Positions 18,099 to 21,200 of a DNA stretch of 64,000 nt are shown in pieces. The translations under genes and the position numbers were made by a program. Each line of letters starts with the position of its first letter. Within the stretch, counting starts at the first letter, position 1. The notes below the pieces were generated by a model. The model saw only the letters and a program-made list of their open reading frames with translations. It made no database searches and was not told the origin of the DNA. This DNA comes from a virus (lineage: Duplodnaviria; Heunggongvirae; Uroviricota; Caudoviricetes). The DNA lies in the IMG/VR virus record IMGVR_UViG_3300028610_000968; one strand, written 5' to 3'.

Positions 18099-18157
18099 AC
18101 CATCTTTTTTAAAGTACTTCAGACTGAATCACCTCCCTCAATCTTGTGTACTGTTAG

Positions 18158-18227
18158 TTGGGAGTCTAGGACTTGAACCCAGATTACCGCCCCTCAAGAA
18201 CGGCGTCCTCACTTAGACGAACTCCCA
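18158..18227 (-). tRNA. Atypical tRNA: Gln-like body with TGA (Ser) anticodon
   Basis: TGGGAGT/ACTCCCA (U1-A72), TCGTCTAA D-arm, loop CTTGAGG, 4-nt variable loop. Confidence 0.6.
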
Positions 18228-18252: not shown

Positions 18253-19683
18253 CTATCTTAAACTAACTTGGTCAATCTTTCTAGTCAAAGCTTTTCTGTC
18301 TGTTTCCAACAATTTCATTATGTCAAATATCTTCTCTGAGAATCCAGAGAAACAAAAGGTACTGTCATTCGGAAATTGTGTACTTCCGTAACCATGTAAA
18401 TCGAAAGAATAAATCTTCGGATTTGCTCCTGTCTTTTTCTTGTACGCTTGTAACGCTGCCGTTGGGACGTTGTACTCCTCCCAAGCCTGCATGTCAGACA
18501 AGATAATTATTCTATCATATTTCCTATTCGCTGTTTCAAAGATGGTATGGAAGTTAGTTCCCCCACCTGGGAAATTGATAGAGTTCGCAATTGTCATTGT
18601 ACTGTCCGAAGGATTTAACGTTTGGTATCTCGCTCTGGTGCTGAACTCAAGAAAATCTGCATTGTTAGCTTTAACCAAAACAGCAGCGAACAAAGTTCCA
18701 ATCTTCTTTGCATCACCAAAGGTCATTGAGCCAGAAGTATCCAAAGCCACCAACGTCTTGCCTTCAAATCTAGGCACATTAGCCAAAGAAATGTCAACAG
18801 CTTTATTCAAAGCCACTGTTATTTCCCTCGCCCCCTCGATATTCCCACCTGTAAATTGCTCAAGTGCTGTGACGAATCTAAAAGGCAGGACTAATGACTT
18901 CCTTATTGCCCTTTCATCCACCAACATTCTCAAAGCCCGGTCTAAAACGATTGGAGCCTGCTCTGCTATGTTTCTTAAATTCCTCAGCAAAGCGAAATAA
19001 CCTAATTTTTCCTCAGTTATCAGCTCGACCCAAGCTCTCTGCTTCAGCTTCGCTTTCTCTTTTTCGTCTTTGGCGTTCTGCCCTGCCTGAGTTAACTTGG
19101 TCTCCCAAGTATCAGTTGACCTCAACTCATCATTGATAAGTTTAGTTAACGCTTCAGTAGGCTTAGGTCTACAACAGTTGACTAAATCAACCAAAGAGAC
19201 AGCGTTGCCCTCACCCCTGTACTTACCTAACCTGTATTCATCGAAACTTCTCAGTCTCTCAGAAAAACCTTTCTTCATTTGGTTAGATATAATCTTGTGT
19301 CCAGTTGCAGCCAGATAAAACGCAGCAATCTCTGTCATATCATCCGGCCTATGAACAACTTTATTGAAAAAATCTTTCGGCCATTCTTCGCCTTTGACTG
19401 TTCTGGCTATCTCAGCAGCCACTACATGAGAAACAGACCTCATGCCAAACTCTGTTCTAGCAAAAACAGCAGCTTTAGCGATAAACTCTTTATCGTCTAT
19501 CCCTTCAACTAACTCTCTTATGCGTTCTACAGTTTGGTTTGAATTTCTGTAATACTGATTTTCCACAAAAGAGGTCAACAGGACAGAAACAATTTCATCT
19601 TTCGATGTTTGTTTGAATGCTTCTCCGCCAGCCTTGTTGACTGTCCTTTTCTTTACCCTTGCTTTTTCGTTGAACTTGCCCAT
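18253..19683 (-). CDS. Ro60/TROVE-domain RNA-binding protein with C-terminal vWA
   Basis: TVNKAGGEAF, ARTEFGMRS, YFALLRNLRNI, PFRF..A, MIDAS motif DTSGSM, ILSDMQ. Confidence 0.93.
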   Translation of the reverse strand: MGKFNEKARVKKRTVNKAGGEAFKQTSKDEIVSVLLTSFVENQYYRNSNQTVERIRELVEGIDDKEFIAKAAVFARTEFGMRSVSHVVAAEIARTVKGEEWPKDFFNKVVHRPDDMTEIAAFYLAATGHKIISNQMKKGFSERLRSFDEYRLGKYRGEGNAVSLVDLVNCCRPKPTEALTKLINDELRSTDTWETKLTQAGQNAKDEKEKAKLKQRAWVELITEEKLGYFALLRNLRNIAEQAPIVLDRALRMLVDERAIRKSLVLPFRFVTALEQFTGGNIEGAREITVALNKAVDISLANVPRFEGKTLVALDTSGSMTFGDAKKIGTLFAAVLVKANNADFLEFSTRARYQTLNPSDSTMTIANSINFPGGGTNFHTIFETANRKYDRIIILSDMQAWEEYNVPTAALQAYKKKTGANPKIYSFDLHGYGSTQFPNDSTFCFSGFSEKIFDIMKLLETDRKALTRKIDQVSLR

Positions 19684-19726
19684 CTACTCCACTCCATTCC
19701 TTTTGGTTTTGTACGCAAAAAATTGC

Positions 19727-19815
19727 AGAGGAAGAAAAACGGTTAGAGTTCGGTGGCACGACACCACCATTTACGTTTCAGAGTCGTTGAAGTAACTCTA
19801 ACCTGACTATCCTCT
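19727..19815 (-). ncRNA. Y-RNA-like unit 1 (no tRNA module)
   Basis: AGAGGA-TAGTCAGG-TTAGAG-TTACTTC...CTCTAA-CCGTTTTTC-TTCCTCT. Confidence 0.75.
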
Positions 19816-19828
19816 TATGTTTAAAATT

Positions 19829-19967
19829 AGAAGGAAGTAAATTGAAAAGGGAGCTTTTTTTACCGCCGCCTTTACCAACTTGGCCATTTCTCCACAAGTG
19901 GAGAAACCAGGATTTGAACCTGGGAATAGCGGTTCCTTAGAAGTAGCCCTTATCTGACTGTCCTTCT
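19829..19967 (-). ncRNA. Y-RNA-like unit 2, YrlA-type with permuted tRNA-like module
   Basis: CAGTCAGA...CTACTTC; T-arm CCAGG-TTCAAAT-CCTGG; closed acceptor TTTCTCCA-CTTG-TGGAGAAA; D-arm GCCAAGTTGGTAAAGGC. Confidence 0.85.
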
Positions 19968-19975
19968 TAAATTGC

Positions 19976-20061
19976 AGAAGAGAGGAAAATGACTAGAGTG
20001 TATGCGGCCCGAGGCCGCGATTCATTTCAGTTGAAGTAACTCTGTGTCTGACTACTCTTCT
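19976..20061 (-). ncRNA. Y-RNA-like unit 3 (no tRNA module)
   Basis: AGAAGAG-TAGTCAGA-CACAGAG-TTACTTC...GCGGCC-TCG-GGCCGC...CTCT...CTCTTCT. Confidence 0.75.
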
Positions 20062-20071
20062 ATTAAAGTTT

Positions 20072-20134
20072 AAAGGGAGAAAAACGACTAGAGTGTTTTC
20101 ACCAAAAGAAGTAACTCTAACCTGACTACCCTTT
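20072..20134 (-). ncRNA. Y-RNA-like unit 4 (minimal, 63 nt)
   Basis: AAAGGG-TAGTCAGG-TTAGAG-TTACTTC-TTTTGGTGAAAACA-CTCTAG-TCGTTTTTC-TCCCTTT. Confidence 0.75.
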
Positions 20135-20232
20135 ATATAGTAGGAACAGGGGGAAATCGAACGCCCTCAAAGACCTGTTTCGGTCAATGTCCTCCAGGAG
20201 TCCCTTATGCTCTAGCTAGAAACATAAAGTTT

Positions 20233-20358
20233 AAAGGGAGAAAATTAACAAGAGAGATTTTAGTGCTCTACCGCTGAGCTACACGCTATGCGTGGCGGGA
20301 ATTGAACCCGCGACCACTCGAATTAAAAGTCGAAGTAACTCTTGTTTGACTACCCTTT
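20233..20358 (-). ncRNA. Y-RNA-like unit 5, YrlA-type with permuted tRNA-like module
   Basis: TAGTCAAA-CAAGAG-TTACTTC; T-arm GCGGG-TTCAATT-CCCGC; closed acceptor CACGC-ATA-GCGTG; D-arm TAGCTCAGCGGTAGAGC. Confidence 0.88.
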
Positions 20359-20364
20359 ATGTAG

Positions 20365-20437
20365 TGGAAAGCGAGGAATCGAACCTCTACCTGTGTTGCG
20401 AACACAACCATCACTTACTAGTGTAAGTTAACTTCCC
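20365..20437 (-). tRNA. tRNA-Ala(CGC) with non-canonical D-arm
   Basis: GGGAAGT/GCTTTCC-A with G3:U70; loop TTCGCAA; D-arm ACTTAC-ACTA-GTAAGT lacks the GG motif. Confidence 0.65.
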
Positions 20438-20438
20438 T

Positions 20439-20513
20439 TGGAGCGAATAACTGGATTCGAACCAGCATCCTACGGTTTGGAAGACCGAGATAATACCGTT
20501 ATACCACATTCGC
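20439..20513 (-). tRNA. tRNA-Gly(TCC); the only full tRNA here with encoded CCA
   Basis: GCGAATG/TATTCGC, U73, CCA; loop CTTCCAA. Confidence 0.9.
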
Positions 20514-20605: not shown

Positions 20606-20634
20606 ATAATAACATATAGTTAGGGGCTTGTCAA
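20606..20634 (-). promoter_or_regulatory. Sigma70-type promoter at the head of the RNA island
   Basis: TTGACA-17 nt-TATTAT with extended -10 TG; -35 sits inside the inverted repeat TAGGGG-N8-CCCCTA. Confidence 0.75.
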
Positions 20635-21200
20635 CCCCTAAATGTAAACTTTTTGTAAACTTGCTGCATACCGCTTGCTTGTTCGCTTTTGAATACTAGA
20701 GCAAGTTTAAATTCAGTCCTAACCTCAGCAAACTTTAATCCTAATTCCTTCAAAGCTTCTATTACTCCAACCAAACGAAAGTCATGTAGGATTATTAAAT
20801 CGTCAACCATGTCATAAACATTCTTCATATCTATGATTACCTGTTCTTTGGTATGGTCGCCATCAAGAAAACAAATGTCAAACTTCTCATTCTTTAACTT
20901 TTTTATATCCTTACAAGTTTTTACATTTCTGGGCAAAGACGGCCAAACTGCCTCATGAACCCAAGGGTCTATATCTATTGTAGTCACGCTCCTGGCTGTC
21001 TTGCTTATGTTCGCAGCAGACACTCCTACACCTGTCCCTATTTCTAGTACATCGGCCCCCACGCACAGTAAAGAAATTATCTTAGCTTCTTCATCTGTTA
21101 TAGAGACTCTCTGGCCACCTTGTCCATCTGCTCCTGGTTCACCAGGGTCTTTAGGATTATACCAAGCAGCAGCGTATTGTACTCTCTCTAACTTATTCAA
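20631..21200 (-). CDS. Class I SAM-dependent methyltransferase
   Basis: VLEIGTGVG, TIDID, FDICFLDGDH, ILHD. Confidence 0.85.
   Translation of the reverse strand: MNKLERVQYAAAWYNPKDPGEPGADGQGGQRVSITDEEAKIISLLCVGADVLEIGTGVGVSAANISKTARSVTTIDIDPWVHEAVWPSLPRNVKTCKDIKKLKNEKFDICFLDGDHTKEQVIIDMKNVYDMVDDLIILHDFRLVGVIEALKELGLKFAEVRTEFKLALVFKSEQASGMQQVYKKFTFRG

What the first reader, a model, noticed from the sequence alone, without database searches (positions are those of the whole stretch)
18253..20358. Ro60/TROVE gene preceded by a tandem array of five Y-RNA-like units with swappable cargo
Five units (63-139 nt, separated mostly by short AT spacers) share one scaffold: terminal purine/pyrimidine stem, YAGTCA, a ~6-bp stem, YTACTTC, variable insert, complementary strand and pyrimidine tract. 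Stem sequences differ between units but pairing is preserved (TTAGAG/CTCTAA, CAAGAG/CTCTTG, AAGGG/CCCTT), which is direct covariation evidence. Units 2 and 5 carry the permuted T-arm/closed acceptor/D-arm module of YrlA RNAs; units 1, 3 and 4 carry unrelated short inserts. Established: Ro60 binds Y RNAs, which tether effectors such as PNPase, and Ro60+YrlA occurs in some bacteria and phages. The unusual part is the array-like multiplicity with different cargo under one promoter, next to many aberrant tRNA mimics. Inference: a modular RNP platform in which each RNA recruits or decoys a different host RNA-processing or anti-phage nuclease.
Basis: partly seen in the sequence, partly recalled or inferred. 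Interest (0 to 1): 0.85.

Follow-up and report, generated by a model that had tools for sequence, protein, structure and literature searches.

The report
Five Y-RNA genes before phage Ro60
A large uncultured phage carries five small RNA genes in front of its Ro60 gene. All five share one Ro60-type stem ("handle") but have different bodies, two of them tRNA-shaped, and arrays of one to at least seven such RNAs flank related Ro60 genes in many phages and bacteria, forming a Y-RNA branch that the curated Rfam model misses.

Summary
Window 18253-19683 (minus strand) encodes a Ro60 protein with TROVE and vWA domains. Directly upstream on the same strand lie exactly five RNA units. They share this scaffold: 7-bp terminal stem, UAGUCA, 8-bp inner stem, UUACUUC, variable insert, AAUUUUCU. 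Ten of the 15 pairs change on both sides among the five copies.

Two units (A, D) carry permuted tRNA-like modules of the YrlA type, two (C, E) carry a GC hairpin, and one (B) is minimal.

The array is not a peculiarity of this phage. A covariance model built from the units finds the same scaffold beside 73 of 74 related viral or metagenomic Ro60 genes. All 183 hits lie on the Ro60 strand, with 1-6 per locus. It also finds arrays of up to 7-9 units in bacterial MAGs (metagenome-assembled genomes), and hits beside crAss-like phage Ro60 genes. Rfam's YrlA model never reaches its threshold, and the published GNCGAA motif is absent.

Most likely these are Ro60-partner Y RNAs made from one tRNA-punctuated transcript. 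The claim that each cargo recruits a different nuclease is untested. A decoy for anticodon nucleases is unlikely, because the mimics have no anticodon loop.

This scan has noted similar Ro60 + RNA arrays on other DNA in more than 200 genomes. Verdict: a new variant of a known kind.

The parts
20606..20634 (-). Promoter-like site, TTGACA-17-TATTAT with TG before the -10. The -35 lies inside a hairpin (20641-20620) that could be the upstream gene's terminator.
   Evidence: 11 of 12 consensus matches. Prediction only.
20439..20513 (-). tRNA-Gly(UCC), the first gene of the putative transcript
   Evidence: 57.9 bits
20362..20438 (-). X1: tRNA-like element with a 7-bp acceptor stem and a T-arm, but a 6-bp/4-nt D hairpin and an anticodon stem closed by a 3-nt loop
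   Evidence: Fold z-score -2.69. tRNA-Sec model only 18.6 bits, E 1.1. ARAGORN calls it only at 80% thresholds.
20231..20358 (-). Y-RNA unit A: scaffold plus V hairpin plus a permuted tRNA-like module (T-arm GCGGG/CCCGC, 5-bp closed acceptor stem, D-arm GCUC/GAGC)
   Evidence: R2 72.4 bits. Rfam YrlA 42.1 bits, below the gathering score of 69. ARAGORN on the permuted sequence.
20138..20230 (-). X2: unassigned 93-nt stretch between units A and B
   Evidence: No hit from either model, Rfam or ARAGORN. Fold z-score -0.6. Unique in the window.
20068..20135 (-). Y-RNA unit B: minimal form, scaffold closed by a loop of about 21 nt
   Evidence: R2 64.0 bits; fold
19973..20062 (-). Y-RNA unit C: scaffold plus a GC hairpin (GCGGCC-UCG-GGCCGC)
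   Evidence: R2 53.0 bits; fold
19828..19967 (-). Y-RNA unit D: scaffold plus a permuted tRNA-like module with a 7-bp closed acceptor stem (UUUCUCC/GGAGAAA) and a long-loop D-arm of class II tRNA type
   Evidence: R2 51.6 bits; ARAGORN on the permuted sequence; fold
19728..19819 (-). Y-RNA unit E: scaffold plus a GC hairpin (GGUGG-loop-CCACC); its insert resembles that of unit C
   Evidence: R2 65.1 bits; fold
18253..19683 (-). Ro60/Rsr gene (476 aa): TROVE ring domain plus vWA domain with a DxSGS metal-site motif
   Evidence: A2 invariant columns D315, S317, G318, S319.
18157..18227 (-). tRNA-Ser(UGA) directly after the Ro60 stop codon

Best explanation
The five units are genes for Y RNAs, the small partner RNAs of the Ro60 protein encoded just downstream.

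Shown:
- The five units share a stem / internal loop / stem scaffold with covarying pairs.
- The same scaffold travels with Ro60 genes, on the Ro60 strand, across phages and bacteria.
- Two units carry YrlA-type tRNA mimics.

Inferred, step by step:
1. One transcript starts at the promoter-like site at 20634. It runs through tRNA-Gly, the tRNA-like X1, units A to E, the Ro60 gene and tRNA-Ser.
2. The transcript is cut into separate RNAs by the host tRNA-processing enzymes at the tRNA(-like) elements, and by endonucleases in the A/U-rich spacers.
3. Each RNA binds the outside of the Ro60 ring through the shared handle. This is GG|UAGUSA at the stem-loop junction, which sits where GNCGAA sits in YrlA, probably together with the invariant single-stranded UUACUUC.
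4. The variable insert (tRNA mimic, GC hairpin or none) decides what else the particle touches. By analogy with Deinococcus, Salmonella and phage phiLo, that partner is host polynucleotide phosphorylase or another RNA-handling enzyme. The phage would then have several Ro60 particles for surveillance, decay or repair of structured RNA, probably tRNA, during infection.
For: Ro60 identity.

Scaffold and covariation within the window: 10 of 15 pairs compensatory, 96% paired against 51-60% when slid.

Specificity within the window: five hits only, next best E 2.8, filters off.

Linkage to Ro60:
- Model R1 found 131 of 131 non-window hits in viral and metagenome loci on the Ro60 strand.
- R1 found 149 of 150 hits in 80 GTDB genome loci on the Ro60 strand.
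- Model R2 found 183 hits in 73 of 74 loci, all on the Ro60 strand, 174 of them upstream.

Clade-wide covariation: 93% paired against 45-57% when slid, and all 15 pairs show changes on both sides.

Invariant letters U, A, C and C of UUACUUC in 136 of 136 units.

Architecture matches the Rfam YrlA consensus: 6-bp stem, 5/8-nt loop, 7-bp stem (alignment).

tRNA-like modules.

Precedents:
- YrlA and YrlB are cut from one precursor upstream of Rsr.
- The tRNA-Asp-Yrn2-Yrn1 polycistron (PMC4201824).
- phiLo Ro60 binds two upstream Y-like RNAs and host PNPase (PMC12135203).
- TROVE proteins in jumbo phages are read as an RNA-repair platform with a tRNA-like partner (PMC7824862).

tRNA genes interleave with units in relatives L111, L030 and L016.
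Against: - The RNAs have not been observed, and their binding to Ro60 has not been tested.
- The published Ro60-contact motif GNCGAAN0-1G is absent from the 5' stem of all five units (read directly).
- Rfam YrlA scores below threshold for unit A and gives no hit for B-E.
- The promoter and the single-transcript model rest on a consensus scan.
- The alignments used for clade-wide covariation were fitted to the model, which favours pairing.
- No exoribonuclease or RNA ligase gene was seen among the neighbours I annotated, so the effector is inferred only by analogy.
- X2 is unexplained.
Confidence: 0.75

Rival explanations
1. The units act in cis. They are Ro60-binding sites in the long 5' leader of the Ro60 mRNA, and they let the protein control its own translation or mRNA stability rather than serving as free RNAs.
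For: The units lie on the same strand between the only promoter-like site and the Ro60 start codon. No terminator-like site lies between them on the minus strand. Unit E ends 45 nt before the start codon.
Against: In relatives the units also lie downstream of Ro60: L090, L070, L067, L089 and crAss001. They can also be separated from Ro60 by up to ten tRNA genes (L111). Characterised bacterial Y RNAs in the same position are processed into free RNAs (PMC4201824). The two roles do not exclude each other.
Confidence: 0.1
2. The units are tRNA decoys or permuted tRNA-derived genes. They belong to the phage's tRNA island, act against host tRNA-targeting defences, and do not depend on Ro60.
For: The locus closes a 14-kb island with 22 tRNA genes and a tmRNA-like gene. 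Units A and D are tRNA-shaped. Some relatives embed nearly complete tRNAs with anticodon arms in the same scaffold. In L006 the tRNA model matches positions 4-67 at 55.4 bits. In csAssE-Sib two units are annotated as tRNA-Tyr and tRNA-Lys in GenBank.
Against: Three of the five units have no tRNA-like part. A and D have no anticodon loop. The scaffold is the conserved part, not the tRNA-like insert, and it follows Ro60 almost without exception.
Confidence: 0.1
3. The units are structural punctuation only: repeated hairpins that guide processing or stabilise the polycistronic tRNA/mRNA transcript, with no specific protein partner.
For: Units are tightly packed between tRNA-like elements and separated by A/U-rich spacers.
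Against: Single-stranded letters (UAGUSA, UUACUUC, UUUUCU) are conserved across phyla, which simple processing hairpins would not need. The scaffold occurs only next to Ro60 in the 64-kb window, even though the window holds 22 other tRNA junctions.
Confidence: 0.04

Closest known systems
Bacterial and mycobacteriophage Rsr (Ro60) with YrlA/YrlB (Rfam RF02553; Chen et al. 2014, PMC4201824)
   Same: - The RNAs lie within about 1 kb upstream of Ro60 on the same strand.
- The ends pair into a stem, followed by an asymmetric internal loop and a second stem.
- At least one RNA carries a permuted T-arm, closed acceptor stem and D-arm.
- A shorter hairpin-type RNA sits alongside.
- All are made from one precursor.
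   Different: - Five RNAs instead of two.
- No GNCGAAN0-1G motif; the handle is UAGUSA ... UUACUUC ... UUUUCU-CC instead.
- The Rfam model scores 42 bits or less (gathering score 69) here, and 35-46 bits in relatives.
- Two different tRNA mimics occur in one array.
Thermus phage phiLo Ro60 with Yrl1 and Yrl2 (PMC12135203; PDB 9KOP, 9L5Y)
   Same: A phage-encoded Ro60 with Y-like RNAs next to its gene. It is the nearest solved structure (E 1.3e-25). In that work it was shown to bind its RNAs and host PNPase.
   Different: Two RNAs, found through a CGAA motif. Protein identity is only 25.7% by tblastn. My model gives only weak hits in that locus (E about 0.01).
Deinococcus radiodurans tRNA-Asp-Yrn2-Yrn1 polycistron with Rsr (PMC4201824)
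   Same: Y RNAs co-transcribed with a tRNA upstream of Rsr. Several small RNAs (a-d) are encoded in the spacer.
   Different: A different Ro60-binding helix (metazoan-like, both strands conserved) and a different orientation of the tRNA-like part.
Vertebrate Y RNAs (two to four paralogues per species)
   Same: One protein, several paralogous RNAs with a common Ro60-binding stem and divergent loops thought to bind different partners.
   Different: Separate RNA polymerase III genes rather than a tandem operon. No tRNA-like module. A different binding sequence.
Dictyostelid Class I RNAs (PMC7919456) - a resemblance only
   Same: A short stem followed directly by a conserved single-stranded motif of about 11 nt, with the rest variable. 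The five letters reported as near-invariant (T3, C6, C9, A10, A11) fit AGUUACUUCAA of units C and E.
   Different: Class I RNAs have a single stem, no Ro60 link is reported, and they are eukaryotic. Across this clade, positions 10 and 11 fit in only 44 and 65 of 136 units. Homology was not tested.

Membership tests
Ro60 / Rsr protein (TROVE + vWA) | TROVE (HEAT-repeat ring) domain | tested here: met
   Pfam PF05731, E 4.3e-17, 62.9 bits against a cut-off of 23. phmmer to phiLo Ro60 covers residues 14-465.
Ro60 / Rsr protein (TROVE + vWA) | C-terminal Ro60-type vWA domain with a metal-site (MIDAS) DxSxS motif | tested here: met
   PF25045, 30.4 bits against a cut-off of 27.7. D315, S317, G318, S319 are invariant in 19 clade members.
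Ro60 / Rsr protein (TROVE + vWA) | Closed ring fold that binds RNA | not tested
   No structure prediction was run. Sequence matches to solved Ro60 rings only.
Y RNA (Ro60-bound small RNA) | Encoded near Ro60 on the same strand (Chen et al. used within 4 kb) | tested here: met
   All five units lie within 45-675 nt upstream of the Ro60 start codon. 183 of 183 hits in relatives are on the Ro60 strand.
Y RNA (Ro60-bound small RNA) | 5' and 3' ends pair into a long stem interrupted by an internal loop; size about 70-140 nt | tested here: met
   Units are 68-140 nt.
Y RNA (Ro60-bound small RNA) | Accumulates as a discrete RNA bound by Ro60 | not testable with these tools
   Needs RNA and binding data from infected cells or a heterologous host.
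YrlA (Rfam RF02553) | Score at or above the Rfam gathering threshold (69 bits) | tested here: not met
   Unit A scores 42.1 bits. Units B-E give no hit at E<=10.
YrlA (Rfam RF02553) | GNCGAAN0-1G motif near the 5' end | tested here: not met
   At that position all five units read GG(G/A)(U/C)AGUCA. The clade consensus is GG-UAGUGA.
YrlA (Rfam RF02553) | Permuted tRNA-like module: T-arm, closed acceptor stem, D-arm, with the Y stem in place of the anticodon arm | tested here: met
   Met for units A and D only. B, C and E lack it.
YrlB / Yrn2-type hairpin Y RNAs | Long hairpin with a small loop, Ro60-bound, lacking a full tRNA-like module | tested here: inconclusive
   Units B, C and E have that general shape. 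These RNAs have no sequence model to test against.

The most novel reading that the evidence does not exclude
The UAGUSA/UUACUUC handle defines a large, uncurated Y-RNA superfamily. It co-evolved with one branch of Ro60 in phages (including crAss-like phages) and in Bacteroidota, Verrucomicrobiota and Chloroflexota.

Its tandem arrays would be a combinatorial kit. One ring protein is loaded with up to nine different adaptor RNAs: permuted tRNA mimics, un-permuted near-tRNAs, hairpins and bare handles. Each would steer Ro60 to a different RNA-handling enzyme or substrate inside tRNA operons.

A further possibility is that the stem-plus-UUAC..C..AA handle is related to the orphan Class I RNAs of social amoebae.
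Probability: 0.3. Interest if true: 0.8.

Novelty: new variant of a known kind. Interest (0 to 1): 0.6.

Why it matters
Ro60 and Y RNAs are conserved from bacteria to humans, yet what the variable part of a Y RNA does is known for very few cases.

These loci offer natural sets of RNAs with a constant handle and a variable body, up to at least seven per locus. They sit next to a protein that can be expressed and purified, and they occur in hundreds of genomes.

That makes two questions directly testable: which letters Ro60 reads, and whether different bodies recruit different partners.

There is also a practical point. Genome annotation currently misses these RNAs, because Rfam YrlA scores stay below threshold. 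In csAssE-Sib two units with embedded near-complete tRNAs are annotated as plain tRNA genes, so phage tRNA counts may be inflated.

crAss001, a cultured gut phage whose TROVE gene is reported as an early gene (PMC8375218), has two such units. It could therefore serve as an experimental model.

Tried and rejected
- **Megablast against 50,697 phage records**: the 2.3-kb locus gave no match.
- **Single-protein scan of IMG/VR**: no relative found. The alignment-based scan succeeded.
- **Whole genome**: none is held for this window.
- **Sequencing runs**: one DNA run holds the stretch and is possibly its own source. No RNA holder is listed.
- **Reviews**: PMC10870794 and PMC6047535 are not held. 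I could not check whether they mention larger arrays.
- **X2 as a tRNA or a sixth unit**: no support from either model, Rfam or ARAGORN.
- **Cargo homology by blastn-short among 286 units**: only the tRNA-like arms of unit A have relatives. The inserts of B-E have none, so I could not show that cargo types are orthologous between genomes.
- **Simple pairing between UAGUGA, UUACUUC and the 3' loop**: checked by hand, no helix or kink-turn pattern found.
- **ARAGORN at 80% thresholds**: it also called unit E a tRNA, which I treat as a false positive.
- **Protein-protein complex prediction**: not attempted, because the partner is RNA.
Full report
**What is there**

All genes in this part of the window run on the minus strand. 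ORF 18253-19683 encodes a 476-aa protein that matches Pfam TROVE (E 4.3e-17) and the Ro60-type vWA domain (E 4.5e-07). Its best solved relatives are the Ro60 of Thermus phage phiLo (9KOP/9L5Y, E 1.3e-25) and Deinococcus Rsr (2NVO).

The gene closes a 14-kb island with 22 tRNA genes and a tmRNA-like gene. The island also holds HNH endonucleases, methyltransferases, a macro domain protein and a PD-(D/E)XK nuclease. It is flanked by replication genes and an endolysin.

The contig is a 129-kb metagenome assembly. The nearest deposited phage is a 635-kb uncultured phage whose Ro60 is 50.6% identical. So this is a large uncultured phage.

**The five units**

Read on the minus strand, the 950 nt between a promoter-like site and the Ro60 start codon contain, in order:

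| Element | Coordinates | Content |
|---|---|---|
| tRNA-Gly | 20513-20439 | normal tRNA |
| X1 | 20438-20362 | aberrant tRNA-like element |
| unit A | 20358-20231 | permuted tRNA-like module |
| X2 | 20230-20138 | unassigned 93 nt |
| unit B | 20135-20068 | minimal, about 21-nt loop |
| unit C | 20062-19973 | GC hairpin |
| unit D | 19967-19828 | permuted tRNA-like module |
| unit E | 19819-19728 | GC hairpin |

All five units share this order of parts: 7-bp terminal stem, UAGUCA, 8-bp inner stem, UUACUUC, insert, inner-stem 3' strand, AAUUUUCU, terminal-stem 3' strand (alignment A1).

On that structure 96% of cells pair, against 51-60% when the 3' partner is slid by 1-3 columns. Ten of the 15 pairs change on both sides among the five copies, and none of 500 shuffles reaches these values. 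The scaffolds are 67-84% identical to one another, so these are diverged paralogues rather than fresh duplicates.

A clade-level covariance model (R2) run with filters off over all 64 kb, both strands, returns these five units (E 4.6e-10 to 4.2e-15). The next best hit has E 2.8.

**The inserts**

- **Unit A** aligns end to end with Rfam YrlA: T-arm, closed 5-bp acceptor stem, D-arm, plus an extra V hairpin. It scores only 42.1 bits against a gathering score of 69.
- **Unit D** has a T-arm, a 7-bp closed acceptor stem and a long-loop D-arm. Rfam does not report it.
- When A and D are cut in the acceptor loop and rejoined through their terminal stems, ARAGORN calls both as tRNAs. It treats the Y scaffold as a 50- or 61-nt insert in the anticodon arm. 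Neither is called in its native order.
- **Units C and E** carry one GC-rich hairpin after a similar linker.
- **Unit B** is the bare scaffold closed by a loop of about 21 nt.

**Not a peculiarity of this phage**

The Ro60 protein has thousands of relatives (3930 with E<=1e-30 among the scored candidates).

I fetched these sets of loci:
- the DNA around eight close homologues
- 80 viral loci from IMG/VR
- 80 loci from GTDB genomes

*Model R1*, built from the window's five units, gave:
- 131 further units in 63 viral or metagenomic loci, all on the Ro60 strand
- 150 units in 62 genome loci, 149 of them on the Ro60 strand

*Model R2*, built from 118 of these units, found 183 units in 73 of 74 non-redundant viral or metagenomic loci. 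All are on the Ro60 strand and 174 lie upstream. The one locus without a hit has only 98 nt of upstream sequence.

| Units per locus (R2) | 1 | 2 | 3 | 4 | 5 | 6 |
|---|---|---|---|---|---|---|
| Loci | 14 | 29 | 16 | 8 | 5 | 1 |

These counts are lower bounds. The flanks were only 1.5 kb, and each model misses some units. L021 has six units by eye. A Chthoniobacteraceae MAG (L133) has seven by the model and nine handle starts by eye.

Across 136 units, 93% of cells pair against 45-57% when slid, and every one of the 15 pairs shows changes on both sides. That alignment was fitted to the model, which favours pairing.

The consensus is: stem-GG, UAGUGA, inner stem ending AGAG, U-UACUUC, insert, CUCU-inner stem, AAU-UUUCU, CC-stem. 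U, A, C and C of UUACUUC are invariant in 136 of 136 units.

Unit lengths are bimodal, at 60-100 nt and 120-160 nt.

tRNA genes often interleave with the units or flank the locus (L111, L030, L016, L161, L162).

The model also finds units beside much more distant Ro60 genes:
- three upstream in phage csAssE-Sib, two of which GenBank annotates as tRNA-Tyr and tRNA-Lys
- two downstream of gp96 in the cultured Bacteroides phage crAss001
- two upstream in Xanthomonas phage Tenjo

**Comparison with what is known**

Chen et al. 2014 (PMC4201824) established these points:
- YrlA-type RNAs lie within 4 kb of Ro60 on the same strand in 254 bacteria and 22 phages.
- M. smegmatis YrlA and YrlB come from one precursor.
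- D. radiodurans makes tRNA-Asp, Yrn2 and Yrn1 as one transcript.
- A GNCGAAN0-1G motif near the 5' end is the likely Ro60 contact.

The phiLo study found two Y-like RNAs upstream of a phage Ro60 and showed binding to Ro60 and to host PNPase (PMC12135203). A Listeria phage paper speculated that three highly transcribed regions upstream of an Rsr homologue are Y RNAs (PMC12282133).

I found no paper describing this handle, or tandem arrays of five or more. Two reviews were not available.

The overall architecture is that of YrlA. The Rfam consensus has a 6-bp stem, a 5/8-nt loop and a 7-bp stem. However, two defining features of YrlA membership fail: the gathering score and the GNCGAA motif. 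Relatives score 35-46 bits, and none reached 69 in the loci I scanned with Rfam.

I therefore file the units as Y RNAs of a divergent, uncurated branch, and not as members of RF02553.

**How it most likely works**

The identity as Ro60-partner RNAs rests on linkage, strand, architecture and covariation. I rate it at about 0.85.

The remaining steps are inferred:
- one transcript from the TTGACA-17-TATTAT site
- release of the RNAs by tRNA-processing enzymes at the tRNA(-like) elements, and by cleavage in the A/U-rich spacers
- binding of the shared handle to the Ro60 ring
- inserts that select partners such as PNPase

The setting is a tRNA island. The literature links Ro60/Y RNA with the RtcB tRNA-repair operon (PMC7790460, listed) and with RNA repair in jumbo phages (PMC7824862). 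Together these point to surveillance or repair of tRNA-like RNAs during infection.

It could fit the un-permuted near-tRNAs seen in relatives such as L006 and csAssE-Sib.

**Rival readings**

I considered three rivals: cis-acting leader sites, Ro60-independent tRNA decoys, and mere processing hairpins. Each is weakened by three facts. Units also occur downstream of Ro60 and behind tRNA arrays. Three of the five units have no tRNA part. Single-stranded letters are conserved across phyla.

**Earlier notes of this scan**

Earlier notes report Ro60 plus RNA arrays in more than 200 other genomes. I used them only as leads. The Class I RNA resemblance was checked against PMC7919456. It holds for units C and E but only partly across the clade.

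**Verdict**

This is a new variant of a known kind. The window's array is a mid-to-large example of a widespread, undescribed Y-RNA branch.

Noticed in passing
window 20362-20438 (-): X1 lies between tRNA-Gly and unit A. It is a tRNA-shaped element with a 7-bp acceptor stem and a normal T-arm, but its D hairpin has a 4-nt loop and its anticodon stem is closed by only 3 nt, so it cannot decode. It may serve as an RNase P/Z processing signal.
   Followed up: partly
window 20138-20230 (-): X2 is the only long spacer in the array (93 nt). It contains the palindrome CTAGCTAG, a small GACC/GGUC hairpin and a T-loop-like GTTCGATTT. It matches no model and has no copy elsewhere in the window.
   Followed up: partly
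L006 2672-2809; L175 2136-2271 and 2282-2418: In some relatives the Y scaffold carries a nearly complete tRNA in normal order, with an anticodon arm. In L006 the tRNA model matches positions 4-67. In phage csAssE-Sib two such units are annotated in GenBank as tRNA-Tyr and tRNA-Lys, so some 'phage tRNAs' may in fact be Y-RNA cargo.
   Followed up: partly
L176 4014-4102 and 4108-4190 (NC_049977 about 96599-96775, minus strand): The cultured Bacteroides phage crAss001 has two short units of this family just downstream of its TROVE gene gp96, in an unannotated 900-nt gap. The TROVE gene is reported as an early gene (PMC8375218), which makes this a possible experimental model.
   Followed up: partly
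L111, L161, L162, L158, L151, L168, L125 (GTDB genome loci): In bacterial MAG contigs, including multi-megabase ones, the Ro60 gene and its Y-RNA array sit inside same-strand tRNA gene arrays, with up to ten tRNAs between units. I did not determine whether these are prophages, tRNA-array islands or core loci.
   Followed up: no
L008, L009, L010: Three relatives have an RlaP (PF10127, RNA-repair-pathway nucleotidyltransferase) gene one or two genes upstream of Ro60. This hints at a link to RNA repair. No such gene was seen next to Ro60 in the window.
   Followed up: no
window 20620-20641 (-): A 9-bp hairpin (TTAGGGGTTGACAAGCCCCTAA) contains the -35 hexamer of the best promoter-like site. It may double as the terminator of the upstream methyltransferase-like gene, or occlude the promoter.
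   Followed up: no
window units C and E (19973-20062, 19728-19819); clade consensus: The letters after the inner stem, AGUUACUUCAA, fit the five near-invariant positions reported for the 11-nt motif of dictyostelid Class I RNAs (PMC7919456). Across the clade the fit is only partial. This is a resemblance, not shown homology.
   Followed up: partly
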